Position numbers and translations under genes: made by a program
The notes under the pieces: model-generated
Seen by the model: only the letters and a program-made list of their open reading frames with translations
What the model was told of the DNA's origin: nothing
The model's database searches: none
Shown here: piece by piece, positions 9,995 through 60,703 of the stretch
How positions within the stretch are numbered: position 1 is the stretch's first letter
How the letters are laid out: the number at the start of each line of letters is the position of its first letter
Source: Phoronis australis
Lineage: Eukaryota; Animalia; Phoronida
Direction of reading: 5' to 3'
Assembly: GCA_002633005.1 (NCBI GenBank)
Contig: NMRA01000078.1
Span: 880,233 to 944,232 of the forward strand
DNA: 64,000 nucleotides

Positions 9995-11450
9995 CTCAAA
10001 TTTCTCGATTTGCCGAGTTCCATCCTCAGCAATTTGTCCCCACCCTTCCTTCATATGTTAAAGATACAAATCATTTTCTTAATATAATTAAAAATATCAC
10101 AGATTTACCCAAAAATGACCTCCTAGTTACTCTTGATGTTGAAAGCTCATACACTAATATTCATCAACATGAAGGCATGGAAGCCTGCATCAAAATTCTT
10201 AACTAATAACCCTAATCATACCTACATCATTCATTCACTCTCTTCTTGAAGATGTACTTATCGTGAATCACTTCACCTTCAATGATAAGCATTATCTTCA
10301 AATATTAGGTACAGCTATGGGCATTAGAGTTGCCCCTACTTTTGCAAGCCTTTTTATGGGAAATCTTGAAAATAACTTCATCAAATGTTGTTCCGAAAAA
10401 CCTCTTCTCTGGCTGAGGTACATTGACCACATTTTTATGATCTGGACCCATGCCCCACAAAAATTACATGCATTCTTAGAAAATATTAACAAATTTCACC
10501 CCCAATAAAGTTCACCCACGACATTTCTCAAGATAAAATTTCATTTTTAGATGTCACTGTCATCATTAGTAATGATAAACTAGAAACGGACTTATTCTGT
10601 AAAGAAATTGAGAAGCACCAATATCTGTCGTATCACTCATGTCGTCCCTTTCACTGCAAGAAAAACCTTCCATATGGTACTGCACATTTGTGGCATTTGT
10701 TCAGAAGAAACTGCCTTAAATATTAGTTTAAAAGAACTCAAACATTACTTACTTCAACGCCATTTCCCCTTACATCTTATACACAAACAGTTTGACAAAG
10801 TCCGCTCAATCACAAGAAATGAATCTTTAAGAACTTAAACGAAAGATTATAGTACTTTTAATAGAATACCTTTCATAACCATGTTCAATGGGTGTTTAAA
10901 CATCATGTCTTCAGAAAACACCTTTCCACTCTGCATATTTCCCCTCGTATGAAAAACCTATTTCTTCATCCACCTAAAATTTCTTGGAGAATATGTAAAA
11001 GCTTAAAAAATATTTAGTTAGAGCAAATATGAACTATAAAAGCCAAAGTGACAAATCTATTGGTAACACATAATGTAACAAATCTAGATGCAAAATGTGT
11101 AACTTTATAACGACAATACTTTCTTCCAGTCTTCTCAAACTATTTTTCTGACTGCACCACCAACAATATCATTTACCTAATAACATGTAGAAAATGTTTC
11201 GTTCAATGTGTAGGACAAACTCAACATAATCTGCAAACTCGGTTTCCCAATCATAGATTTAACATAATACATAAAAATATTTCTGATACTATAGGTAATC
11301 ATTTCAATTCCAAAAAACATAATCTACAAGATCTTTCTGTACAAATAATAGAAAACTCCAATATCCCAGAACCCCTCACAGACTTAAAAGAGAACAATTT
11401 TGGACAGATAAGCTTAACACACTTGAACCCAATGGATTAAACATTAAGAA
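9995..11450 (+). mobile_element. Decayed Penelope-like retroelement (reverse transcriptase + GIY-YIG endonuclease), Neptune-type, with several stops and frameshifts
   Basis: Translated fragments: LPSYVKDTNHFL, LVTLDVESSYTNI, YLQILGTAMG..APTFASLFMG, WLRYIDHIF, ISFLDVTV, a CNKSRCKMC Cys linker, NIIYLITCRKC..CVGQT...RF.NHR and REQFW..KLNTLEPNGLN. The order RT, Cys linker, GIY-YIG is characteristic of PLEs. Confidence 0.88.
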
Positions 11451-34000: not shown

Positions 34001-37000
34001 CACTGAATACCCTTGGCCGTATTCTTCAAACTTTGGCAGTTTATGTCCAGAGGGCACTCAAATGTATTTTGCGATGAGATTGCTTGTAGCTCCCATTCAG
34101 AGAATGGGTTTGAAAAGGGGACTCGTTTGTAGGGATCTTCCATGAATGAAAATATTACTCTTGTGTAGGATGTAGTCTAGAAACACCAGTCTTGTGAAGG
34201 TATTATTGGAGCCCCAGCTGAATATATAAACTGATGTACTGTGTGCCTGAAATAGTATAAGAACAGATGGCATGTTGTCAAAAATTAGTACATCTTTTGA
34301 AATCAGTTTTAAAAGCATGAATGAAAACCCTTCTCTGTATTTGGATCAAGGAACCTAAGATCTAGCGTGACCCTTTGTTGGAAATCAATACTGCCTTTTG
34401 CTGGGAATTAAATTGGAAAAAATACCCTTTGGATGGGAATTTTGTAGGAAAAGAACCCTTTCATGAAGAAACTTGCAGTAAAAATAGTTACACCTCTCCG
34501 AGCAGCATGTCCAGTATACCACTTCTACGCTTTGTGTTTGTTTGGATCAAAGTCAGAAATTTTTGTTGGTTTATTCGTTGCTGTTTTGAAGACTAAATTT
34601 TAGCTTAATTAAACTAACTGGGTTCTAAAACGGAGTTTTCAGTTTTAAAACATCACATTTTAGCATTACAGCTGAACACTCAGATGGCAATAGTGTAGTA
34701 TAATGTAAACAGAAATGTGCCTGTTCAAGTGTGATTATCCTATTTGTCCAGATTAACGCCAAAGCTTATGAAAATCTCAAAAATCATGGGTTAAGGTATT
34801 AAGCTGTGTTTGGATGATTGGGTTTCTTTTTCTTGAACTGCCAGTTTAGGCTTAGTAACCTAGAAGTTGCATTTATCTCCATGATAGCAAGTAGCAGCAT
34901 ATATTGAAGAAAACAACTACGGTTTTAAGACTTGACATGTTTCGGTGTCATTTATTCAACATCATCCTCAGAAGTGATAATACAGTGGCCACCTAGCTAG
35001 GCCCAGCAACAAGTTGCATTTATATAATTAAATAAAAAATCTGACTGAATGCAGACAATGTGCTTTTTGTGAGTAAAAACAAATGAGTTGTGTGCATCTT
35101 GAGAGCTGCAGTGAGCTTTCATGATGAGAATATACTGCTTTAAGGGATCAAAATCCTTGACGTTATGAAATTAAGTTAGGGTAAATAACTGAGCACTGAC
35201 ATTTTAAAGGGATTTTGATTTTTGTTTGAATATTGAGGAGTGGATATTTAGTTGAAGATGAAGGTTAACTAGGACAAAGTTAACAAAGCTGTGCAAATAC
35301 TGAGAATGATTATTATGATCGTGTTTCAGTTGTTAAGCAGCATCCAAGAGGATATTGTTGCTGGTTGGTGTGATGAAGCGGTCGTCATGGAAACCATAAA
35401 GAGCACACTGGAAAGAACAGGTAAGATGTATATGGAGCAGGACCTCTTTTCCGTCTTCAGTGAGCTGTTTAAGAATTGGGTTACTGAGGGTTAATACAAA
35501 CACTACGGACTTTTTGTCATGAAGATGATTTTTACTTGAGAATAACATGCATTCACAACAATGGTTGGAAATATTAAGTTAAGATCCCTTTTGGAACCTC
35601 CATGTAGCAATTGTACAGCCATTCCGTCTTGTGCACCCTCATTTGTTGTAGAATAAAACAATAAAAACAATTCGTTAATGCCTGGTGGAATCTTGTAACA
35701 GGCCTGAATGCACCACAGGGAGATCAAGTCCGGGATCCCTGTTCCGACTTGGTTTGTGAACTTAAAATCTCAATAGCCTCCCGTACCGTACGTTTCCACT
35801 TATCTGGGTGTAGACTTAATATACTGAAATCCTCATCAGAGATTTGGTGATGCACATATCTAGCATGGTCTTGAATAACAGTAATGAGTTGGAAGGTTCT
35901 TCACTAATTAAGCATATGTGTTGTTCTTTTCAATTACTTAACAAATAAAGATTGAGCATTCAAAAATAGGAAACTGGCATTATTTGTGTGTGAAATAAGT
36001 AAAAAATTAACAGTGTGGTAAAATCTAACCAATTTCAGGCAAAAAACAATTGACAAATTTCATCGTTTTTCGTTTTTCAAAGGCTTGTTAAAGTAAATAC
36101 AGTGAATTTTTCAAAACATTGTCTGAGGTTAGCTATGAAGTAGAACTTCGAAATAAAAAAGCACTTGGTTGGGTTACTTATATTTTATGAAGAAAAAGGA
36201 TTTCACTAGTCCAAAGCTGAGGAAATTTTTTTGCTTTCTGTGATTGAAAATTGAACATTTCAAAAAAGTTAATCGGCTAGGCTTGCCAGTCCATCTCTGT
36301 TCTTTGCATCTATTTACTGAGTTTGACATCATTTCATAATAATAAATTATTATAAACAAATAATTTCTACAACTATAATTACAATTACTATTATTGTTAT
36401 CACTATTACTATTCTCATTGAATATTACTATTATTAGTATTACTGTTACTATTATTACCATTATTATTACTATAATACTAATGCTTTTCTTATCATTACT
36501 ATCATTACTATTATTGCTATTGGTTGAAGCGGTGTGGCCTAAGTGGGATAAATGTCCATTTCATTTACTCAAGGTCGCGGGTTCATGTGCCACTGGGGCA
36601 CACTGCTAGGCCTTTGAGCCAGCCAGGTCTCTAGTTCCTCACCTCGGTTTTATCGATGTATCCGATAAAAATGAAGAAATAAAGCATAAATATGGATTTG
36701 GGTGATCACTGCATTGGGCCCTCATGTGCATTGGGCCCTCATGTGCTATTGATATTGCTATTAATATTACTATTATTGCTTTTATTATTACTAGTACTAT
36801 TGATATTGCTATTAATATTACTATTGTTATTGCTTTTATTATTACTAGTACTATTGATGTTGCTATTAATATTACAATTGTTATTGCTTTTATTATTACT
36901 AGAACTATTGATGTTGCTATTAATATTACAATTGTTATTGCTTTTATTATTACTAGTACCATTGATGTTGCTATTAATATTACTATTGTTATTGCTTTTA

Positions 37001-42641: not shown

Positions 42642-43878
42642 ATGGAGGACTCAACCGGTTTCAGCGCACTGGACAGTTTCCTACATTACGGCTTGTTTCT
42701 GGGTGCTATATTTCAACTTGTCTGCATTTTTGCTGTAGTTTTCATTCCATTAAAAGAGGACGAAAATGTAAGTCGTGCACTGCTTTTTGTAAGTTGTAAA
42801 CGTAAAATCACGGAAGGGTTTAAAATCGGGCCGCTGCTTGACGTGCAACCTGTCTTGCTGTGCGTGAACTTGGAATCCTGCTCTCAAGATCGCGTATGCG
42901 TGAACTTCGAATTGACTATTCATTTGGGTAGTCTGGTGAATTTTGTGCTCAGTGTAAAGAATATTTGTAATTATTGCTCTCATCATCACCCATTTTCTTC
43001 TTTAGTCTAACTTGTCTCGAAGAATCTGAGGAATATGTGAATGGTTAAATCAAATTCAATTATTGTTTGATGAATAAATTCGCCATACGCGATCTTGAAA
43101 TTAATCAAGGTTCCAAGTTCACGCACAGCGGTCCTATGCCTAGGCAATGACCATCGCCTCTGTTGGCCCGATGCAGAGGCTATAGGCGCTCTGTACGCCG
43201 GAAGCTTTTCGGCGAATTTAGGCAATGACCATCGCCTCTGTTGGCCAACAGAGGCGATGGTCATTGCCTATCCTATGCCAAGCTTTTATATTTACTAGAG
43301 TCTAAAAGGCAACTAGGGAACGATGTGTGTAAGATTTAAAGAACCTCGAAATTACAAACCGCGTGGGTAGTGCTGCTCATCACTTAGTCATGAAACAATG
43401 ACAATGCAGCGTATAGAAACCACAGGGCCGTAGAGGGCAGGCAGTTACATTGAATAGCGCAAGCATACAGCCTAACCGGCCAACCGAGGGGCAACGTGTT
43501 GGCTAGTTTAGGGTAGCATATAGCGGGCAACAATTTTAGCCTGTTATGGCTGTATGTTCACAAATACAGGGACTATTGTATTCGACTAGTTATCGAACAG
43601 GCCACAGGAGCTTATCGGGAAAATAGGTTTGGAGGGTTATGTGTGCCAATGTGGTAAATATTGTGCCCTCTGATTTTGTGTTAGTTTCTGGGTGGGCAAA
43701 CGAGAGAAGTTGTTACAATGATGAGTATTATTGGGGAGTTTTCAGTATCCAGGTTTAATTGTGTCTTTGTTTAACATTGCAGGAGGCGGTGGAGGAATCA
43801 AATACACATACACCTGCCACAAGTCGAGCGACAGAATCTCAGAAACGTCCGAAACACGAAAAGAAGAAACGAAAATGA
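42642..43878 (+). CDS. MANBAL: Protein MANBAL (UPF0239) homologue, 73 aa. Exons 42642-42767, 43783-43878
   Basis: FLHYGLFLGAIFQLVCIFAVV transmembrane motif, a phase-0 intron, and a second exon EAVEESN...QKRPKHEKKKRK* giving the family's basic C-terminus. Confidence 0.9.
43141..43270. mobile_element. 130-bp MITE with 28-bp perfect TIRs and a 9-bp TSD (Mutator-like signature)
   Basis: TIR TAGGCAATGACCATCGCCTCTGTTGGCC. TCCTATGCC occurs at 43132-43140 and 43271-43279. The element is absent from the other copy of the intron (about 41710). Confidence 0.9.
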
Positions 43879-51404: not shown

Positions 51405-54346
51405 TCAAATGTCTTTATAAATGAGATCGTATCTTGGTACTCGACTTGGCTCTAATGGACTCATCACCATCAGCTTGCCTTTCATGGCTCCTCTGTAAAT
51501 GACTTCAATGACATCAATAAAATCTTGCCTCGACTGGAAACTTCCAATAAACTTGGTGTTGTCTGGTGATCTGGAAAATGGAAATGGAAATTTTTCAATC
51601 GTGAAATAACAGATGAGGTAAATTTTTTCAACTACTGTTGTCTAATCTTCAGACATTCAGAAAATCTCTACTAGTTCGAAATAACAGGCATTGTGGAAAT
51701 TTTCAGAACCTAGAAATGGGCAAAAGGATAAAGCAATCATATTTGGAGGGCAATTCCAAATATAAAAGGAAATGCCATCACTGAATTACATCATTTTTGT
51801 TCATGAACTGAAACACTAATATTAGCACACAGACACTATAGAAATGACAAGTCTGTATGGTTCAGTAGATTAAAGTCGTAAACACTTAAATCAATTGTTC
51901 TTGTGGCAGATTTAAAGGGTAGGTAAAGGCTCTCTAAAATTTCTGGATCTGCTGTTGATTACGTAACACTACGTTATACAAACCCCCAGTCCACTCGCAT
52001 ATGATGGCCGTTGAAGAAAAAGACAGTTGCTGGTATCAGGGTGATATCGAAGTAACTTCTGTAGATGTCAACTTGATCGACATTCACTGTATATATGGCG
52101 GCCATGTTTCGAAGTTCATCTTCTGTCTTGGCAAGCTGTCGAGGAGAATATTCAAACACTCAATAAGTCCTACAATAAAAGGTTGCTGCCCAAGTAAATA
52201 AGAGATTTACAAGCACACCAACCTTGGTGCCTGATAACCACCCTTGCCCTTTGGCTAATTCTTGCTCTTCTGGAGGTGTTGCCGGAGGTAACACGGCCTT
52301 GGGTTAAGTGAAAGAGAAGGAACAAATGGGCCCTAGCTCAACATTTTTTAAAATAATTCTTAGAGTTAGTGTTAGTAGGCAAACAACATCAGTCACTAGC
52401 CATATAGATATAATTACAATAAGGCCAAAAACAGTTGTTTTTGGTCCTTTTGGTGATGTGGTATTGCTGTCAGTGAGTGCAGGTCTCAAATTGAGCCGGG
52501 GTAGAGATCAGAACCAGCAGCTAGTTTTGAGGCTGAATGGGGAACTTCATAGCAGAACACTTGCTTTATGGATATTAAAAGGATACTAAAAACCAAATCC
52601 TGTTCTGTTACCTGGTAATATATCAGTGGTGATCCACAAGTTTCACAGATTGGATACCACAGAAAATAAATCTGAAACTAAATGAGGCGATCCAGTTCCT
52701 CTAAAGGATACTATTGACTGATGAAATGTAGAATATATATTAGGTAAATAAAACAACAATAATGGACAGGGCTCAACACTAACGGTTGCCCGATTGCCGT
52801 GTACATGTAGATTTTGCGTCGAGCAAGTGGAATTTGAAAAGTACCTGCCCGATGGACAAGTTAAAACAAACCTATATTTACCGTCGAAAAAACCCTGGTG
52901 GCCGTCAAAGAAACTCCTGTCTTCGAATGAGCACCTTAAGGAAAATTGAAAGAGTGTGATGCTGCGTGCACAGATGACGCTCGCGGTCAAATCCTTTCAA
53001 TTCTCTGATCGAGCCCTACAGTTTCTGAGTAAGTTGTCAGGCGATACTACTGATCGTCTGCACTCAGGCAAAATGTCCTTGGTTTAGTTGCTAAAAAGCG
53101 ACCTCAGGAAGAATCAAAACAACAATATGAAAAGAAAAGAGTGCGGGAGTGGGTTCCGTCATGGGAAATTAGGTTTCCTGGCCTGCAAGACAGTAAACAA
53201 GGGATGACGTGTGAATTTTGCCGGCGTTTCCCCAAGTACAGCTGGAAGCAACAAGTTTACCGGCGGATTAAGTCATACAGGTTAGCGCAAAACCTAAAAA
53301 GTGAATGATACCACGTATTTTCTACACTACACAGCAGTTTTAAAGGCTGGGTATTTATTCGGGGGGAATTCCAAAGGAAACTCTTATGAATTCCCGGCTC
53401 CCGGTGGCGACTCTAAAACAAGAGGAATACGGTCTTCGGGATTGTCGCTATGAAGGGTGACTTTCGCGGTCTATTTATTTTTCAAAAAGGTAATTAGTTA
53501 TTGAAAATAAAAGTAAATGTGGCATTATTATTTTAAAATTTGATTTTAAACTAATACAAGGTACCGATGGCCATGGTTACAGGAATCGTTAAAAAATAGG
53601 AACTCAAGCATATAGCATGCACGGCACTAGAGTAGGCTCAGCACAGACAGCCTTACGGTAACACATTACCTAGGTGTGCACATGCACGGTGCTGTTTGAG
53701 ATTGTACTTGGGGCAAGTGAGTTTGTTGTTCGGGCAAGTAAAAATTTCAACTACTTGCCCAAAAGGCAAGTGACTTAAAAAGTTAATGTTGAGCCCTGAT
53801 GCCAGTGATGGTTTGAAGTAGTGAAATTTTGCCACAGCCTGGTGGGGGAGTCGGTGCCGTGGTTGGTACCCGGGTAGGGGCAAAGGACAGGTGAACTGGG
53901 GGGTTGGGTTTAAAGCCAAATGCTGAAACATCGAACAGGTAGCAAGAAGGACATGTGACAGTGACACTCCTGAGGGAGTACGTTCCATCACAAGCACTTT
54001 TAAGCAGCCCTCAACTATACACTTTACACAACTTTATTTAGTGTATAGCTGAGGGCTGCTTAAAGGTGCCTGTGGTTTCATAAAGACAAAGCCAAGCATA
54101 AATAAGACACTACTACTCCACTACTGTCTGTAGTTTGTAGACAGTAGTGAGTGTGGACTGAGACTGAGACAATGTCAACGCCAGTGTCAGTGTGAAAGCT
54201 TGGGCACGTACTATGTCATCTAAAAGTAAACAGTTCACGTCGCCTTCTCTTCCAAATCGCAGCACCAAAACGAGTTCTTTTGTTTGAGTAATGGCACTGT
54301 CCACTTCTGCCTTACTGTCCAATTTCTTTAGCAGAAACGTGGCCAT
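51405..54346 (-). CDS. TXNL4B: Thioredoxin-like protein 4B (Dim2/DLP), 150 aa. Exons 54346-54212, 52135-51984, 51570-51405
   Basis: LVLVLRFGR...LDDI | LAK...YFDITLIPATVFFFNGHHMRVDWG | SPDNTKFIGSF..QDFIDVIEVIYRGAMKGK...YDLIYKDI*. GT-AG introns, 453 nt. The C-terminus is 4B-type rather than Dim1/4A-type. Confidence 0.93.
52767..53798 (+). mobile_element. Internally deleted hAT-like transposon in TXNL4B intron 1
   Basis: 17-bp TIRs CAGGGCTCAACAC/TTAAC with subterminal CTTGCCC/GGGCAAG repeats. An internal remnant REWVPSWEIRFPGL...GMTCEFCRRF (about 53145-53230) resembles a TTF-type zinc finger. No clean TSD. Confidence 0.75.
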
Positions 54347-56021
54347 TGATAACGCACGTTTCTTTTTCAACAGAACCACTTGCTGTGTTGTTTGTCTCCC
54401 CTGATTTTCACAATTTATCTCTTCTAATCTCCAACCAAAGTCTGGGTTCGAGACTACAACGTGTGCATGAGTAAGTATACATGTGCGAACTTAGTTGGTC
54501 TAACAAGTCGCCGTTGGTTAGCTCTGACGACATTAATGTAATAGACAAATAGTTATAACTATTCCTGTTTTATTTGTAAGCAGATTATTGGTGACAAAAT
54601 ACCATTTTAGGTCACATTACTCCAAATCTCCGACACCGCATGTAGAGCCGGGAGAGGGCAGCACAGTCCAGCCCATAGTCACAGACACACTCAAACACAG
54701 TTGACTGTGTGACTTACTAGTATCATGAATGAAGTGAGTCAGTTGTACAGTAGGAAATACGAAATTAATAGGTAGTGTCACAGTCATGTTGGAAATTTTT
54801 TTGTCTTTATAAATGGTGCAAAGCTGTATATTTATATTGTATTAATGTCGGCTGACATGGACAAACAGGCTACAACACACAGCAGTTTCAGTTTTATTCA
54901 CAGTGTAACTGTAACAGTAAATTTCTAGAGGGTACTCACATAGCGTCCACATTGGACAGCGACGAACTCCAGAAGGCCCAGACGATCTTGTCACATGGTC
55001 TTGACAGGTGACATGTCACGTGGTGATAGTGTGACCTCTGCTGGGCTCTTCTGGCATCCAGTCAGGTACGTGTCGCACCAGACCAAGACCAAAGAAAATC
55101 AAAAGGACATCACAATATAGAGATGCCACAGCCGAGACTGACTTCGACATTTACTACATTCTTCCCGTCCCTAAAGACACACACAATGAAATTCACAAAA
55201 ATATTATTAAATTTTTGTGCTCTGAGTACCTTCTAATCCCATGCTCCAATTGGAAGCACGGGGTGTTTCTGAGTGTTGTGGCAGACAGTTGCTTCTTGTG
55301 GTATGACCTAGATCCAGATGTTGGACTTAACTTTCATTTTTTCAAACATTGGCAACCATGCCAGAAAAAGCGAGACACCTGGAGTAAGGTCTTATGGTGA
55401 GGGGAAATGTACCGCAACACGCAAAAACATTCTGACGACGTCTTTGTTGTGCTTGTGAAATAGAACGGGGGAAATGAGGGCGTGGTAAAGTATCTACAAT
55501 TAAAATTGAACACGATATGGCAGAATAGTAAATTTTCATTTTGTTTTCTCCATGATAGCAAGTAACAGCATATATTCACGAAAACAACAAAGGTTTTAAA
55601 ACTTGACATGTTTCGGTGTCATTTATTAAACACCATCCTCAGAAGTCATAATACAGTGGCCACCTAGCTAGGCCCAGCAACAAGTAATGAAGCACAGATA
55701 CAGTCTAGTTCATTGTCACTCCCTGTAACTGACTGTATCTGTGCTTCATTACTTGTTGCTGGGCCTAGCTAGGTGGCCACTGTATTATGACTTCTGAGGN
55801 AATAAAATGGCTGCCGAAGGCAGTGCACATTTGAAATAACTCGGCACAAATTAAAGAAAACTTCCGAATCGATGAATGCGGTATATCTGTGAGAGTTAAA
55901 TCGAATCCTATTCAGATCATAACTTTGAAGTGGAATAATTCGGTGAGTACAACAGCAAGTCGGTTTTATGCTTAGGCGGACGAACATTGGGCTCCCCAGT
56001 ATACGTTTCATCACAAGCACT

Positions 56022-56087
56022 TTTAAGCAGCCCTCAACTATACACTTTACACAACTTTATTTAGTGTATAGTTGAGGGCTGCTTAAA
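56022..56087. repeat. 66-bp hairpin (25-bp perfect arms, 16-nt loop); other copy at 53999-54064
   Basis: TTTAAGCAGCCCTCAACTATACACT ... AGTGTATAGTTGAGGGCTGCTTAAA. Confidence 0.85.
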
Positions 56088-56240
56088 GGTGCCTGTGGTT
56101 CCATAAAGCCAAAGCCAAGCATAAATAAGACACTACTACTCCACTACTGTCTGTAGTCTGTAGACAGTAGTGAGTGTCTCAGTGTGGACCGAGTGAGAGT
56201 GAGACAATGTCAACGCCAGTGTGAAAGCTTGGGCACGTAC

Positions 56241-56375
56241 TATGTCATCTAAAAGTAAACAGTTCACGTCGCCTTCTCTTCCAAATCGCAGCACCAACAC
56301 GAGTTCTTTTGTTTGAGTAATGGCACTGTCCACTTCTGCCTTACTGTCCAATTTCTTTAGCAGAAACGTGGCCAT
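56241..56375 (-). CDS. TXNL4B: Second (probably allelic) copy of TXNL4B coding exon 1
   Basis: Same 45 aa as 54346-54212, with the same GTACGT donor. Confidence 0.7.
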
Positions 56376-56501
56376 AACGCATGTTTCTTTTTCAACAGAA
56401 CCACTTGCTGTCTTGTTTGTCTCCCCTGATTTTCACAATTTATCTCTTCTAATCTCCAACCAAAGTCTGGGTTCGAGACTACAACGTGTGCATGAGTAAG
56501 T
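56376..56501. promoter_or_regulatory. Probable bidirectional promoter/5' region shared by TXNL4B and TRMT10C
   Basis: Divergent genes. A plus-strand GTAAGT donor at 56496 lies only 120 bp from the TXNL4B ATG, and the TRMT10C ATG exon begins at an acceptor (58105). The promoter itself is inferred. Confidence 0.45.
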
Positions 56502-56878
56502 ATACATGTGCGAACTTAGTTGGTCTAACTAGTCGCCGTTGGTTAGCTCTGACGACATTAATGTAATAGACAAATAATTATAACTGTTCCTGTTTTATTT
56601 GTAAGCAGATTATTGGTGACAAAATACCATTTTAGGTCATATTACTCCAAATCTCCGACACTGCATGTAGAGCCGGGAGAGGGCAGCACAGTCCAGCCCA
56701 TAGTCACAGACACTCAAACACAGTTGACTGTGTGACTTACTAGTATCATGAATGAAGTGAGTCAGTTGTACAGTAGGAAATATGAAATTAATAGGTAGTG
56801 TCACGGTCATGTTGGAAATTTTTTTGTCTTTATAAATGGTGCAAAGCTGTATATTTATATTGTATTAATGTCGGCTGA

Positions 56879-57007
56879 GTTCATAATTGGGGTCTCGTGC
56901 CTTTGCTCAGGTGTTTTGTGCAATGGGCCCATCCATGAGGCCTGCGCACGTCTGATGCACCGCAAATGACATCAGACCACCTGCACTGTTTTTTTTGTTT
57001 TTTTTTT
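56879..57007 (+). mobile_element. 5'-truncated retroposon insertion with a T-rich tail and a 14-bp TSD, present in only one of the two copies
   Basis: TTAATGTCGGCTGA occurs at 56865-56878 and 57008-57021. The empty site has a single copy at 54842-54855. Confidence 0.9.
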
Positions 57008-57723
57008 TTAATGTCGGCTGACATGGACAAACAGGCTACAACACACAGCAGTTTCAGCCATATTCACAGTGTAACTGTAAGAGTAAATTTCTAGAGGGTA
57101 CTCACATAGCGTCCACACTGGACAGCGACGAACTCCAGAAGGCCCAGACGATCTTGTCACATGGTCTTGACAGGTGACATGTCACGTGGTGATAGTGTGA
57201 CCTCTGCTGGGCTCTTCTGGCATCAGGTACGTGTCGCACCAGACCAAGACCAACTTTGTACTAAGAAAATCAAAAGGACATCACAATATAGAGACGCCAC
57301 AGCCGAGACTGACGTCGACATTTACTACATTCCTCCCTTCCCTAAAGACACACACAATGAAATTCACAAAAATATTATTAAATTTTTGTGCTCTGCTATA
57401 TATACCCTCTAATCCCATGCTCCAATTGGAAGCACGGGGTGTTTCTGAGTGTTGTGGCAGACAGTTGCTTCTTGTGGTATGACCTAGATCCAGATGTTGG
57501 ACTTAATTTTAGTTTTTTCAAACATTGGCAACCATGCCAGAAAAAGCGAGACACCTGGAGCAAGGTCTTATGGTGAGGGGAAATGTACCGCAACACGCAA
57601 AAACATTCTGACGACGTTTTTGTTGTGCTTGTGAAATAGAACGGGGGAAATGAGGGCGTGGTAAAGTATCTACAATTAAAATTGAACATGATATGGCAGA
57701 ACAGTAAATTTTCATTTTGTTTT

Positions 57724-58032
57724 CTCCATGATAGCAAGTAACAGCATATATTCACGAAAACAACAACGGTTTTAAAACTTGACATGTTTCGGTGTCATTT
57801 ATTAAACACCATTCTCAGAAGTCATAATACAGTGGCCACCTAGCTAGGCCCAGCAGCAAGTAATGAAGCACAGATACAGTCAGCTACAGGGAGTGACAAT
57901 GAACTAGACTGTATCTGTGCTTCATTACTTGTTGCTGGGCCTAGCTAGGTGGCCACTGTATTATGACTTCTGAGGATGGTGTTTAATAAATGACACCGAA
58001 ACATGTCAAGTTTTAAAACCGTTGTTGTTTTC
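57724..58032. mobile_element. Fold-back (inverted-duplicated) hammerhead retroposon. 126-bp arms at 57756-57881 and 57907-58032; partial second copy at 55548-55799
   Basis: The arms match at 124/126. TSD-like TTTTCATTTT(G/A)TTTT at 57709-57723 and 58028-58042. The left boundary coincides with that of the solo copy at 34877. Confidence 0.88.
57965..58012 (+). ncRNA. Minimal type I hammerhead ribozyme motif, with predicted cleavage after C58007
   Basis: GACTT-CTGAGGA-T-GGTGTT(TAATAAAT)GACACC-GAAA-C-AT-G-TC-AAGTT gives stem I, an intact CUGANGA/GAAA/GUC core, stem II and a palindromic ACATGT mini stem III. Confidence 0.82.
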
Positions 58033-58120
58033 ATTTTATTTTGCACTAACTGTGAAATCCTCGGTGTGTTCTGCTCTCTAATGAAACTTTCATTTGATTT
58101 CACAGGTTTGGTCGTCCATC

Positions 58121-60703
58121 ATGATTTCTGGACATGCTCGCTGGCTTATTTCAAGACTGTCTCTTCTAAATGCACAGTGTGTAATAACAAATAGTTGCTT
58201 CTTAAAGCCAACGGTTAAAAGTACATCAGTTACTTCATTGATAAAGAACATTATAACAGATGCAACAAGTCGTGTGGTAAGCCCGAAATCAGCATCTCAG
58301 ATACTATTAGAACTGTCACCAGAGGAAGACAGGACGTTAAGAATAATACAAATGGAATACGATGTTGCGTTTGCTTCTGGAGCGAAAGTACCCGATGTGG
58401 TCACAGATGACATGTGGCTCACCCTGTTGAGAGAGTGTCCGACTGTGACCTCGCGGAGAGGTCAGATGAGGTTTTGGTGGCAGAAAGAGTTCTATCGTCT
58501 TCGGAAGGCGGAGAAAAGGGAAAGGATTGCAGAACGGGAACAACAACGACTGGAGGACATTGAAAGGGCAAAATTAGAGGGGTTGTGGAAACCGCCAGAT
58601 AATAGGATATTCATTAGGCTTTACGACTCGCAGATGAATCGGTTTTGCAATTCAAAGTTAGTTCATGCATTAAACTTTGGACAAGAGGTTGTGTTTGACA
58701 TGAGCTTTGATGACTATATGTCAAAAGGTGAGCACCAGAATCTTGTCAATCAGCTGTTGTTTTGTCTGGGAATGAACAAGAAACAGAGGGACCCCTTTCA
58801 CATGCACTTCTGCAATGTGGATCCCAACTCTGTATCCTTGCGTAAATGGAATAAACACATGGACAGCTTGGCCGACAATCACGACTTGATTACAAAGTCT
58901 AGCCAGTGCTACACTGAGTTATTTGACAAAAACCGACTAGTGTATCTGACTCCACATGCACCAAACTACTTGGAAGAGTTTGACAGCGATGCAGTATATA
59001 TCATCGGGGCCTATGTGGATAAAACCACCAAACAGCCACTGACTCTAGCTAAAGCCAAACGCCAAAGACTGAAGATGGCAAAGCTACCTATTGACTTGTA
59101 TTTGAGGTTTGTTGCCTTTAGCCAAGTTGTAAAAAATAGTTGCAGGCGGTCTGGTACATGTTATAGATGCAGGCCCATCAGGCGGGCCTGTTGCACTGAT
59201 CACCGGAAATCATTTTTGCGCTTTAATGCATAGTCAAAACCAAGCTGAGGAGCTAGAAACCTGTCTCAAAGAGGGATACAGCAGTGTGGCCCAGTGGGAC
59301 TGAAACCCACGTCCTCAAGTAAAGGAATCGGACACTCATTTACACTGGGCCACACTGTCTCCTCTCAGCCAAATTAAGTTGGACATGACTCCAGGCTGTT
59401 TACTTAACTTCTGTAAGAAGTACCTGAGATACTTGAATTCAGCGTAATCTTAAACATTTCCTAGGCCCGGTCTCTAATCTTTGTACTCGAAACGAACTCG
59501 AAACTATTTTTGGCAACTTCTCTGCTCCTTTTGTGCGAAGTTAAGATAATTGGTTATCAGAGTGCGCTCGAATACATTATAGTTTATGCATAGGAGTTTC
59601 TAGTTCAAGTTTGCCCTTGAAGACCCTTATATTCGTGCTACAAACTCGAGTAAAAACTCGAAATTTCGAGTTCAAACTCGAACTTATTGCTTTAATATTG
59701 GGTTTACAAACTGTGAACTAAGGGCAATAAATTATCTACGTAAGTTATTGTGTACTCGAGCATAGAATAATAGACACTTATCTTGAGTTCGCCCAAAAGT
59801 AGAGTAGAAAATGCCAAACCTAATTTCAAGTTCCATTTCGAGTAAAAGATTGGAGACCGGGCCCTGGTGTTAACCTTGAGAGTGCCAGTTTCGAATATTG
59901 TTTGTGGCACCTAAAGGCACGGTGCTTAAAGCACACTATTGGCATGACTGATTCAACCAGGAGCATTTTGTCCAAGTGAGATGAAATCAAACTTTTATTG
60001 TAAAAACACAACTGACACACACACACGCCCATGACATACTTTCCCTTTCACCCTCCATGCAGACAACGTAGTTACTGTGAAAAAAAAGCTGCCCACTTTT
60101 GCTGACATTAACTCTTTTCTTCACTTTTTACTATTATAGTTAAATTGTTTTATTTTGCTCTATTGTCACTTTCCACTCACTAATTTGTTGTAGTGGTTGC
60201 TATAGTACATTATTTGATCATGGAAAACCGTTGGTTTTATGAAAATCATGACAAAATAAATTGGTGACATTTTTCTTATTTGCACCTCAAAACTCACATA
60301 AATCGGGATCCAACCAAATCAAAAGATTTGATTCAAGACAAAATAGGATTGAAGAACTGGTTGCATGCTACTCTGATTTGGAGAGCAGCAATACTGCTGG
60401 AAATAGCGAATGTCTGCAATGGAGAACTGTCTCTGTGATCAGCAGAATAGATTCACACCTTGATTGTGATGACTCACCTTCGGTCACTAAGTTTCTGTAT
60501 TCTCCTTCAGGTGGGGCAGCAGTGCTCACAAGAATCTTACCTTGAACAGTGTCATGGGCATATTGCTGGACATAAAACACACTGGAGACTGGAAGTACGC
60601 TCTGCGCCATATACCAGCACGCAAGGTGAAGACGGCGCAACAACGAGAGAAGGAACGTGCTTACAAGATGGCCCGCTACAAGACTATCTACAGGGACGCC
60701 TGA
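58121..60703 (+). CDS. TRMT10C: tRNA methyltransferase 10 homologue C (mitochondrial RNase P protein 1). Exons 58121-59106, 60511-60703
   Basis: Presequence-like N-terminus, FGQEVVFDMSFD, LVYLTPHA, YIIGAYVDK, AKAKR..LKMAKLPIDLYLR|WG...KNLTLN...LL......W..AL..IP.RK (TRM10 SPOUT domain). The phase-2 GT-AG intron closes. Confidence 0.92.
59131..59359 (-). mobile_element. Full-length tRNA-derived SINE with an oligo-T tail, in the TRMT10C intron
   Basis: Minus-strand head GACAGTGTGGCCCAGTG...GGTTTCAGTCCCACTGGGCCACACTG. The body is colinear with 36526-36746, and the tail ...CAGACCGCCTGCAACTA-T(n) resembles those at 9500-9591 and 56879-57007. Confidence 0.7.
59464..59863. mobile_element. 400-bp MITE, PIF/Harbinger-like ends
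   Basis: TIR GGCCCGGTCTC(T/C)AATCTTT, internal ACTCGAA repeats, and 3-bp flanks CTA/CTG. Confidence 0.75.

What the first reader, a model, noticed from the sequence alone, without database searches (positions are those of the whole stretch)
57724..58032. Fold-back palindrome with a hammerhead ribozyme on each strand, about 100 nt upstream of the TRMT10C acceptor
Seen: 126-bp inverted arms (124/126 matched) around a 25-bp spacer. Each arm holds a hammerhead motif (CTGAGGA-T-stem II-GAAACATGTC) pointing outward. The whole is flanked by a 15-bp TSD-like repeat and shares its left boundary with the solo copy at 34877. Established: minimal type I hammerheads with a palindromic mini stem III are typical of Penelope-like element pseudo-LTRs and of non-autonomous retrozyme-type elements, and such minimal forms usually cleave as dimers; PLEs also produce inverted terminal duplications. 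Inference: the element inserted by TPRT and its cDNA folded back. The result is a sense-strand ribozyme in the presumed 5'UTR intron of TRMT10C (predicted cut at 58007, acceptor at 58105), preceded by its own near-perfect antisense. The pre-mRNA would form a 126-bp dsRNA that sequesters the ribozyme and could be an ADAR or Dicer substrate.
Basis: partly seen in the sequence, partly recalled or inferred. Interest (0 to 1): 0.85.

Follow-up and report, generated by a model that had tools for sequence, protein, structure and literature searches.

The report
Penelope mirror-image stub in TRMT10C intron
This DNA palindrome is real but ordinary: it is likely a short two-sided insertion of a common Penelope-type jumping gene in a predicted intron of TRMT10C, with one ribozyme motif mutated and the other predicted to be locked in double-stranded RNA, and nothing here shows that it affects the gene.

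Summary
The palindrome is real (arms 124/126, 25-nt spacer, 14/15 target duplication), but only the right arm has an intact hammerhead core; the left has a private G8A change. Reads show a high-copy family with two recurrent ends, at 57723 and 57746-57756. The spacer is native element sequence. This head-to-head, one-tailed layout is the published insertion form of Penelope-like elements, and opposite-strand hammerhead pairs are in print. 38 of 57 testable database loci with the same core have an inverted partner. Two-ended priming fits better than cDNA fold-back (inferred). TRMT10C exons are expressed, but no read covers the unique intron, so editing or cleavage here is untested. The ribozyme is predicted trapped (about 78 kcal/mol) and has no same-strand dimer partner. 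Transcripts of other family copies carry an A-to-I-like signature (10 of 10 strand-biased sites in the right polarity), also known for lizard Penelope. The reverse transcriptase and endonuclease could not be tested. This scan noted the same kind of palindrome before on other DNA (252 notes, at least 36 genomes).

The parts
57709..57723 (+). Left target-site duplication copy (AT-rich)
   Evidence: 14/15 identical to 58028-58042
57724..57755 (-). One-sided 32-nt tail; 57724 is the family's long 3' end (32-37 nt, given the 5-nt TSD overlap at the other end)
   Evidence: Absent from the right arm; shared with the solo copy; 12, 10 and 14 DNA contigs leave the element at 57723 into unlike flanks in X1, X2, X3
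57756..57881 (-). Left arm, element in sense on the minus strand
57776..57823 (-). Left hammerhead motif with G8A at 57813; predicted inactive (effect of G8A recalled; G8C shown inactive in PMC11167929)
   Evidence: family base intact in 99% of summed contig depth
57882..57906 (-). 25-nt spacer: native element sequence collinear with the left arm
   Evidence: Family reads run through it and continue past 57906-57909
57907..58032 (+). Right arm: inverted, 5'-truncated second copy ending at the family's short end
   Evidence: contigs also end at 57746, 57750 and 57756
57965..58012 (+). Intact minimal type I hammerhead: core from 57970, extra U before stem II, palindromic stem III, predicted cut after 58007
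   Evidence: stems covary in 83 distinct motifs with the same core
58028..58042 (+). Right target-site duplication copy; first 5 nt shared with the arm end
57062..57226 (+). Probable non-coding first exon of TRMT10C, ending at a CAG|GT donor
   Evidence: Plus-strand RNA depth 2.8-5.6 in X6, 0.5-1.6 in X7, 0 in X8; donor sequence; no junction row was listed
57227..58105 (+). Predicted 879-nt 5'UTR intron holding the insertion
   Evidence: Zero RNA depth at 57386-57709 in 3 of 3 raw-read runs; coverage resumes at about 58106
58106..59106 (+). TRMT10C-like coding exon, ATG at 58121
   Evidence: Pfam PF01746 E=4e-20; 35% identity to a named MRPP1 homolog; plus-strand RNA in 3 of 3 raw-read runs
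55548..55799 (.). Second copy of the same palindrome in a probable allelic duplicate, cut at the N; both arms match over the 69 nt available, left core intact, spacer flipped
   Evidence: flanks differ at 36 of 1544 aligned bases
34877..35010 (-). Solo 5'-truncated family copy with tail and a 13-bp target duplication

Best explanation
The palindrome is likely a stub insertion of a high-copy Penelope-like retroelement family: two 5'-truncated copies of the element's hammerhead-bearing end joined head to head, likely made by priming reverse transcription from both nicked target strands, and likely neutral for TRMT10C. Inferred steps: the element's endonuclease cut both strands of an AT-rich site about 15 nt apart; one strand primed at the distal start site (57724; 183 nt copied), the other at the proximal site about 32 nt inside (126 nt copied); the two cDNAs were joined at 57906/57907. 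Shown: the arms, tail, target duplication, native spacer, two recurrent family ends and a private G8A change. Predicted: in TRMT10C pre-mRNA the antisense arm is made first and pairs with the sense ribozyme over 126 bp, so the ribozyme stays silent and the hairpin leaves with the intron, possibly edited by ADAR.
For: Layout matches published Penelope insertions: inverted 5'-truncated copy, 30-40 bp tail at one end, short TSD, head-to-head (PMC8557442 passages; PMC3846280 passages). Dual minimal hammerheads 100-700 bp apart on opposite strands, and the extra base before stem II, are in PMC4209133 (parts 1-2 of 4). A purified Penelope protein cuts and extends both strands and starts at two sites that bound the tail (PMC11167929, parts 1-2 of 4). 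Own-species DNA: 466, 323 and 433 contigs lie on 250 bases, with ends at 57723 and 57746-57756 into unlike flanks. Database loci with the same core: 38 of 57 testable have an inverted partner upstream, against 1 of 89 inward-facing. 27 of 37 show an end asymmetry of 18 nt or more, median 31 nt; solo copies use either end; the tail is on the shorter arm in 4 of 7 informative cases. Folding: arm pairing probability 0.999, ribozyme stems 0.000, forcing them costs about 78 kcal/mol. Element divergence between the two duplicates (4 of 252) is not below the flank rate (expected 5.9, P=0.30).
Against: No reverse transcriptase or GIY-YIG ORF was linked to this family; no genome was held, and none of 18 ORFs from the database loci gave GIY-YIG (one RT fragment, not shown to belong). 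Later flipping of a spacer between arms can mimic the tail-on-shorter-arm pattern, and the two copies in this window do differ in spacer orientation. PMC3846280 explains such palindromes by self-priming on an antisense template. The splice junction and the 57906/57907 junction were not listed in the read tables. The divergence test has little power.
Confidence: 0.72

Rival explanations
1. Same element, but made by cDNA fold-back: one cDNA from 57724 turned back at 57906, copied itself to 57756 and joined the target.
For: In this copy the spacer is collinear with the tail-bearing arm, as fold-back requires. A weak native micro-hairpin (4 bp) and 2 nt of microhomology lie at the turn. Self-priming is the reading in PMC3846280.
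Against: Fold-back does not explain why copying stops at a recurrent family end also used by solo copies. In 4 of 7 informative database palindromes the tail is on the arm that the longer copy could not have templated.
Confidence: 0.2
2. The parent is a small non-autonomous retrozyme-type element moved in trans, not the end of a coding Penelope element.
For: No coding sequence is linked to the family here; retrozymes are proposed to derive from Penelope pLTRs (10.64898/2026.07.22.740005, part 1 of 5 and passages).
Against: Retrozymes are defined as tandem repeats, mostly with canonical hammerheads (PMC7229834 passages). No tandem unit is in the window, the hammerhead is the minimal kind, and the family runs at least 154 nt past the spacer in one contig.
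Confidence: 0.2
3. The hairpin has been co-opted to regulate TRMT10C, through editing, small-RNA production, altered splicing or gated cleavage.
For: It lies about 75-380 nt upstream of the acceptor of an expressed gene, in both duplicates; both mismatches become G-U pairs on the pre-mRNA strand (chance 1 in 4). Family transcripts from other loci look edited.
Against: No intron read; no excess conservation; thousands of such stubs are expected to land in introns (about 43% of Xenopus retrozyme copies are intronic); no same-strand partner for a dimer; no pile-up of read ends at the cut site in 3 of 3 raw-read runs, a weak test in this library type.
Confidence: 0.05
4. The palindrome is an assembly fold-back artefact.
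For: A contig breaks inside the second copy's right arm at the N (55800); the central junction is not listed in the contig joints.
Against: Unique flanks on both sides, a target duplication at the exact ends, arms that differ at two positions, an end at a known family end, and presence in two duplicates with different spacer variants. The contig table found only one inversion joint in 3 DNA runs, so it is insensitive. Only the spacer flip of the second copy may be an assembly choice.
Confidence: 0.02

Closest known systems
Endonuclease-positive Penelope-like element insertions with inverted pLTR, tail and TSD (Adineta vaga Pen2a, PMC3846280; overview in PMC8557442)
   Same: Head-to-head inverted truncated copy, 31-bp tail at one end (32 here), short TSD (8-10 bp there, 13-15 here).
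   Different: Here only two short ends remain, with no ORF between them; the coding parent was not seen.
Minimal type I hammerheads of metazoan PLEs (Cervera and De la Pena 2014, PMC4209133)
   Same: Short stem I, extra base between positions 9 and 10.1, G10.1-C11.1, palindromic stem III, pairs on opposite strands 100-700 bp apart, low activity and none as a single motif.
   Different: A different sequence family; one of the two cores here is mutated.
PAc/Poseidon of Anolis (Frangieh et al. 2024, PMC11167929)
   Same: AT-rich target, two ends bounding a tail, hammerhead close to the 3' end of the insertion.
   Different: No biochemistry here; the ORF start of this family is unknown.
Non-LTR retrozymes (PMC7229834; 10.64898/2026.07.22.740005)
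   Same: Non-coding, type I hammerhead, TSD longer than 4 bp.
   Different: No tandem array, minimal rather than canonical ribozyme, inverted layout with tail.
ADAR-edited repeat hairpins, including lizard Penelope and frog Harbinger (Porath et al. 2017, PMC5625713 passages)
   Same: A short palindromic repeat that forms dsRNA on its own; G depleted upstream of candidate sites.
   Different: Editing is only suggested here, from other copies of the family, and is not shown for this locus.

Membership tests
EN+ Penelope-like element | ORF with telomerase-related RT and GIY-YIG endonuclease | not testable with these tools
   No genome held; I saw no RT-like frame among the window's 52 ORFs of 110 aa or more (read by eye); read laying shows only 30 letters beyond the stub
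EN+ Penelope-like element | Minimal type I hammerhead near the 3' end of insertions | tested here: met
EN+ Penelope-like element | Inverted 5'-truncated copy joined head to head | tested here: met
EN+ Penelope-like element | 30-40 bp tail at one end, from two recurrent ends | tested here: met
   32-nt tail; family ends at 57723 and 57746-57756
EN+ Penelope-like element | Short TSD in AT-rich target; variable 5' truncation | tested here: met
   15 bp here, 13 bp at the solo copy; lengths 183, 126 and 134 nt
EN+ Penelope-like element | pLTR plus tail overlaps the start of the ORF | tested here: inconclusive
   A 20-codon frame is open through the tail in 3 of 3 window copies, but so short a frame arises by chance
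Non-LTR retrozyme | Head-to-tail tandem units each with a hammerhead | tested here: not met
   No tandem copy in the window; other loci of this genome could not be searched
Non-LTR retrozyme | Abundant circular RNA monomers | not testable with these tools
   Unit length unknown; no go-back joint at the cut site
Hammerhead ribozyme (type I, minimal) | Conserved core and stems I and II | tested here: met
   Met for the right arm; not met for the left arm (G8A). In 83 distinct motifs stem I has 3.41 of 4 pairs against 1.73 shuffled; relatedness not controlled
Hammerhead ribozyme (type I, minimal) | Self-cleavage | not testable with these tools
   Needs an in vitro assay; no end pile-up at the cut site
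Rfam hammerhead families | Covariance-model match | tested here: not met
   0 hammerhead among 25 matches at E<=5
MITE / DNA transposon | Symmetric terminal inverted repeats, fixed length and centre | tested here: not met
   Ends asymmetric by the tail; a solo one-armed copy exists; other copies invert at other points

The most novel reading that the evidence does not exclude
An editing-gated intronic ribozyme: ADAR edits the 126-bp hairpin in TRMT10C pre-mRNA, as family transcripts appear edited at 15-41% of reads per site, including the hammerhead core base A15.1 (39 of 138 sense reads). Editing would either disable the ribozyme or loosen the duplex enough to let it cut, and so tune a mitochondrial RNase P subunit.
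Probability: 0.04. Interest if true: 0.7.

Novelty: new member of a known kind. Interest (0 to 1): 0.2.

Why it matters
As a single locus it matters little: it is one more example of a published Penelope insertion form. Such stubs as a class bear on an open question, how Penelope elements make their inverted ends; the tail and spacer counts here lean towards priming from both target strands, a reading that earlier notes of this scan also reached with larger samples. The editing-like signature in family transcripts suggests that these self-made hairpins are ADAR targets in this invertebrate, as reported for lizard Penelope. It would matter more only if an effect on TRMT10C were shown.

Tried and rejected
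Whole-genome search: no genome held. Rfam scan: no hammerhead; miRNA hits rejected as generic hairpin matches. Viral contigs: 0 matches to the core pattern. Database loci gave no blastn match to this element (E<=0.01), so they are analogues, not relatives. Looking for a coding parent in 18 ORFs of those loci: one RT fragment about 600 bp from a palindrome, not shown to belong; no GIY-YIG. The look-up of sequencing runs listed no indexed holder on record as RNA; raw-read runs of the same species label were laid instead. Splice junction 57226-58106: not listed; a 5-nt indel beside the donor in the other duplicate and low depth may explain this, and another upstream exon or trans-splicing is not excluded. 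RNA inversion joints cluster at 57794-57803 (4 joints); rejected as a mechanistic signal because a subfamily diverges at 57803 in DNA, none of the four was listed in DNA contigs, and library template switching is possible. The idea that arms stop at the ribozyme cut: 1 of 9 database cases with the hammerhead in the spacer, and not in this copy. Summed contig depth was not used as a copy number. The TSD count in database loci (14 of 27 with 8 nt or more) has no chance control. Literature: 'Penelope-like' with 'twin priming' gave 3 papers, none about Penelope by title or abstract start; one search gave 1 unrelated paper. Supplements of PMC4209133 and PMC11167929 were not read and may describe these palindromes further.

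Full report
OBSERVATION. The inverted arms are at 57756-57881 and 57907-58032, 124 of 126 complementary, around a 25-nt spacer. A type I hammerhead descriptor of my own found intact cores at 57970 (+; cut after 58007), 55642 (-) and a weak one at 10914 (-), against a mean of 0.01 hits in 100 dinucleotide shuffles. The left arm of the finding is not intact: it reads CTGAGAA, a G8A change at 57813. The solo copy failed the descriptor through a stem II mismatch. Rfam listed no hammerhead among 25 matches at E<=5. A 15-bp repeat (14/15) flanks the insertion at 57709-57723 and 58028-58042; the solo copy at 34877-35010 starts at the same base and has its own 13-bp duplication. The 32 nt at 57724-57755 are present at one end only.

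A SECOND COPY. The stretch 53979-55799 repeats as 56002-57975, joined by a single N; four other single Ns in the window also sit beside near-identical duplicates. I read these as two alleles placed in tandem by the scaffolder (inference). Flanks differ at 36 of 1544 aligned bases. The duplicate carries the same palindrome, cut at the N, with an intact left core and the spacer flipped. Its arms match over all 69 nt available, so the flip may be an assembler's choice. Within the element the two copies differ at 4 of 252 positions against 5.9 expected at the flank rate (P=0.30): no sign of constraint, with little power.

HOST GENE. The ORF from 58121 matches Pfam tRNA_m1G_MT and a named MRPP1 homolog at 35%; a DIM1-family exon (TXNL4B-like) lies on the other strand at 56229-56378. 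The organism was not identified. In three raw RNA runs (18-19% of each read) the coding exon is covered from about 58106 by first-mate-minus reads only, which fixes the library polarity. Plus-strand RNA also covers 57062-57223 in two of the three runs, ending near a CAG|GT donor at 57226/57227. The unique stretch 57386-57709 has zero depth in all three. This fits an 879-nt 5'UTR intron, but no junction row was listed, so the intron is likely, not shown. With no intron reads, editing, small RNAs and cleavage at this locus could not be examined.

THE FAMILY IN ITS OWN SPECIES. Reads over the element (about 40-215 deep, both strands summed) come from other copies, since they run into other flanks. 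In DNA contigs of one sample, 466, 323 and 433 records lie on 57660-57909. They leave the element at 57723 (12, 10, 14 contigs) and at 57746, 57750 and 57756 (9, 7, 7 in X1), into unlike AT-rich flanks (only the best-supported loose ends were shown). So the family has a long and a short end, and the right arm stops at a short end. The bases at 57813, 57856 and 57884 are private to this copy (the family differs in 99-100% of depth). Family reads continue through the spacer collinear with the left arm and beyond it: the spacer is native and the right arm is the inverted duplicate. Other copies invert at other points: four joints in RNA and one in DNA. The junction of this locus was not listed, and the RNA joints were not seen in DNA contigs, so contigs are a weak test.

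THE SAME LAYOUT ELSEWHERE. None gave a blastn match to this element. Of 93, 36 had too little flank; 38 of the other 57 have an inverted partner within 700 bp upstream (three doubtful: L017, L022, L056), against 1 of 89 inward-facing and 2 of 89 tandem (window included in the 89). With a second anchor, 37 palindromes remained; 27 have ends that differ by 18 nt or more (my threshold), median 31 nt. Solo copies use either end. Eleven have a long spacer; in 7 the tail side could be called, and in 4 the tail is on the arm not collinear with the spacer. Stems I and II covary across 83 distinct motifs beyond the bases fixed by the pattern (relatedness not controlled). Palindromes have two chances to match the pattern, which inflates their share.

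MECHANISM. PMC11167929 (parts 1-2 of 4 read) shows a Penelope protein cutting and extending both strands of AT-rich DNA and starting at two sites that bound the tail; its hammerhead cut only with protein, and G8C abolished cutting. Applied here (inference): one strand primed at the long end and copied 183 nt, the other at the short end and copied 126 nt, and the two were joined. A fold-back cDNA has no reason to stop at the second start site and cannot put a tail on the shorter arm. Against this, spacers can flip after insertion, this copy alone fits either model, and PMC3846280 prefers self-priming (passages). I put two-ended priming at about 0.75 and fold-back at 0.2.

RNA FATE. On the plus strand both mismatches become G-U pairs; arm pairing probability is 0.999 and ribozyme stems 0.000; forcing stems I and II raises the energy from -256.7 to -179.1 kcal/mol. 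Single minimal hammerheads did not cut in PMC4209133, and there is no second one on this strand nearby. The sense ribozyme is predicted silent.

EDITING IN THE FAMILY. Of 27 variants listed for run X8, 15 are under 5% in DNA contig depth (cut-off chosen after seeing the table). Ten of these are A>G in plus-strand RNA or T>C in minus-strand RNA, the polarity of A-to-I editing; none has the wrong polarity, one is unbiased and four are other changes. At a 1% cut-off it is 8 right and 0 wrong. All ten have A or U upstream, and one is core A15.1 (39 of 138 sense reads). The DNA is from another animal, the sites are clustered and linked, strand-biased non-editing changes also occur, and most variants exist in single DNA contigs. 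This is suggestive only. Heavy editing of lizard Penelope and of palindromic repeats is reported in PMC5625713 (passages).

WHAT IS KNOWN. PMC8557442 (passages) and PMC3846280 (passages) describe the inverted truncated copy, the 30-40 bp one-sided tail and the TSD. PMC4209133 (parts 1-2 of 4) reports dual minimal hammerheads 100-700 bp apart on opposite strands. Retrozymes are tandem (PMC7229834 passages; 10.64898/2026.07.22.740005 part 1 of 5 and passages). No supplements were read. Earlier notes of this scan hold 252 findings with these words in at least 36 genomes, none with this sequence; they are unreviewed. My reading of tail and ends came; the tail-side test was run after reading those notes.

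VERDICT. A real feature and a new member of a known kind: it works like, and meets every testable structural feature of, a Penelope-like insertion, while the coding feature could not be tested. No evidence of a role at TRMT10C. Interest 0.2.

Noticed in passing
family reads laid on window 57763-57875: A-to-I-like, strand-polarised variants in transcripts of other copies, including hammerhead core A15.1 at 57787.
   Followed up: partly
window 16811, 40509, 41919, 47845, 55800: Five single Ns, each beside near-identical duplicates of 0.2-2 kb; likely alleles placed in tandem, so gene and repeat counts in this assembly may be inflated.
   Followed up: partly
window 55701-55730 versus 57877-57911: The spacer is in opposite orientations in the two duplicates; assembly choice or real flip by recombination between arms.
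   Followed up: partly
window 56229-57226: TXNL4B-like (DIM1) gene on the minus strand, head to head with TRMT10C; a likely shared promoter near 57150-57200 with CACGTG/CACATG boxes (function of the boxes recalled).
   Followed up: partly
window 10859-10914 (-): A weak third hammerhead-like descriptor hit with a poor stem III; its predicted fold is not a hammerhead.
   Followed up: partly
window 53989-54074, 56012-56097, 59464-59863, 43219-43270: Other local palindromes or inverted-repeat elements without a hammerhead descriptor hit.
   Followed up: no
window 57794-57803: Four RNA inversion joints and a DNA subfamily divergence point fall in hammerhead loop II.
   Followed up: partly
window 56900-56980 and 59150-59300: Another abundant transcribed repeat family, present in opposite orientations on either side of TRMT10C exons 1-2.
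   Followed up: no
L003, L007, L008, L011, L054 and related loci: Several unrelated hammerhead families in metagenome contigs share the same core, head-to-head layout and about 31-nt tail; several tails hold an ATG.
   Followed up: partly
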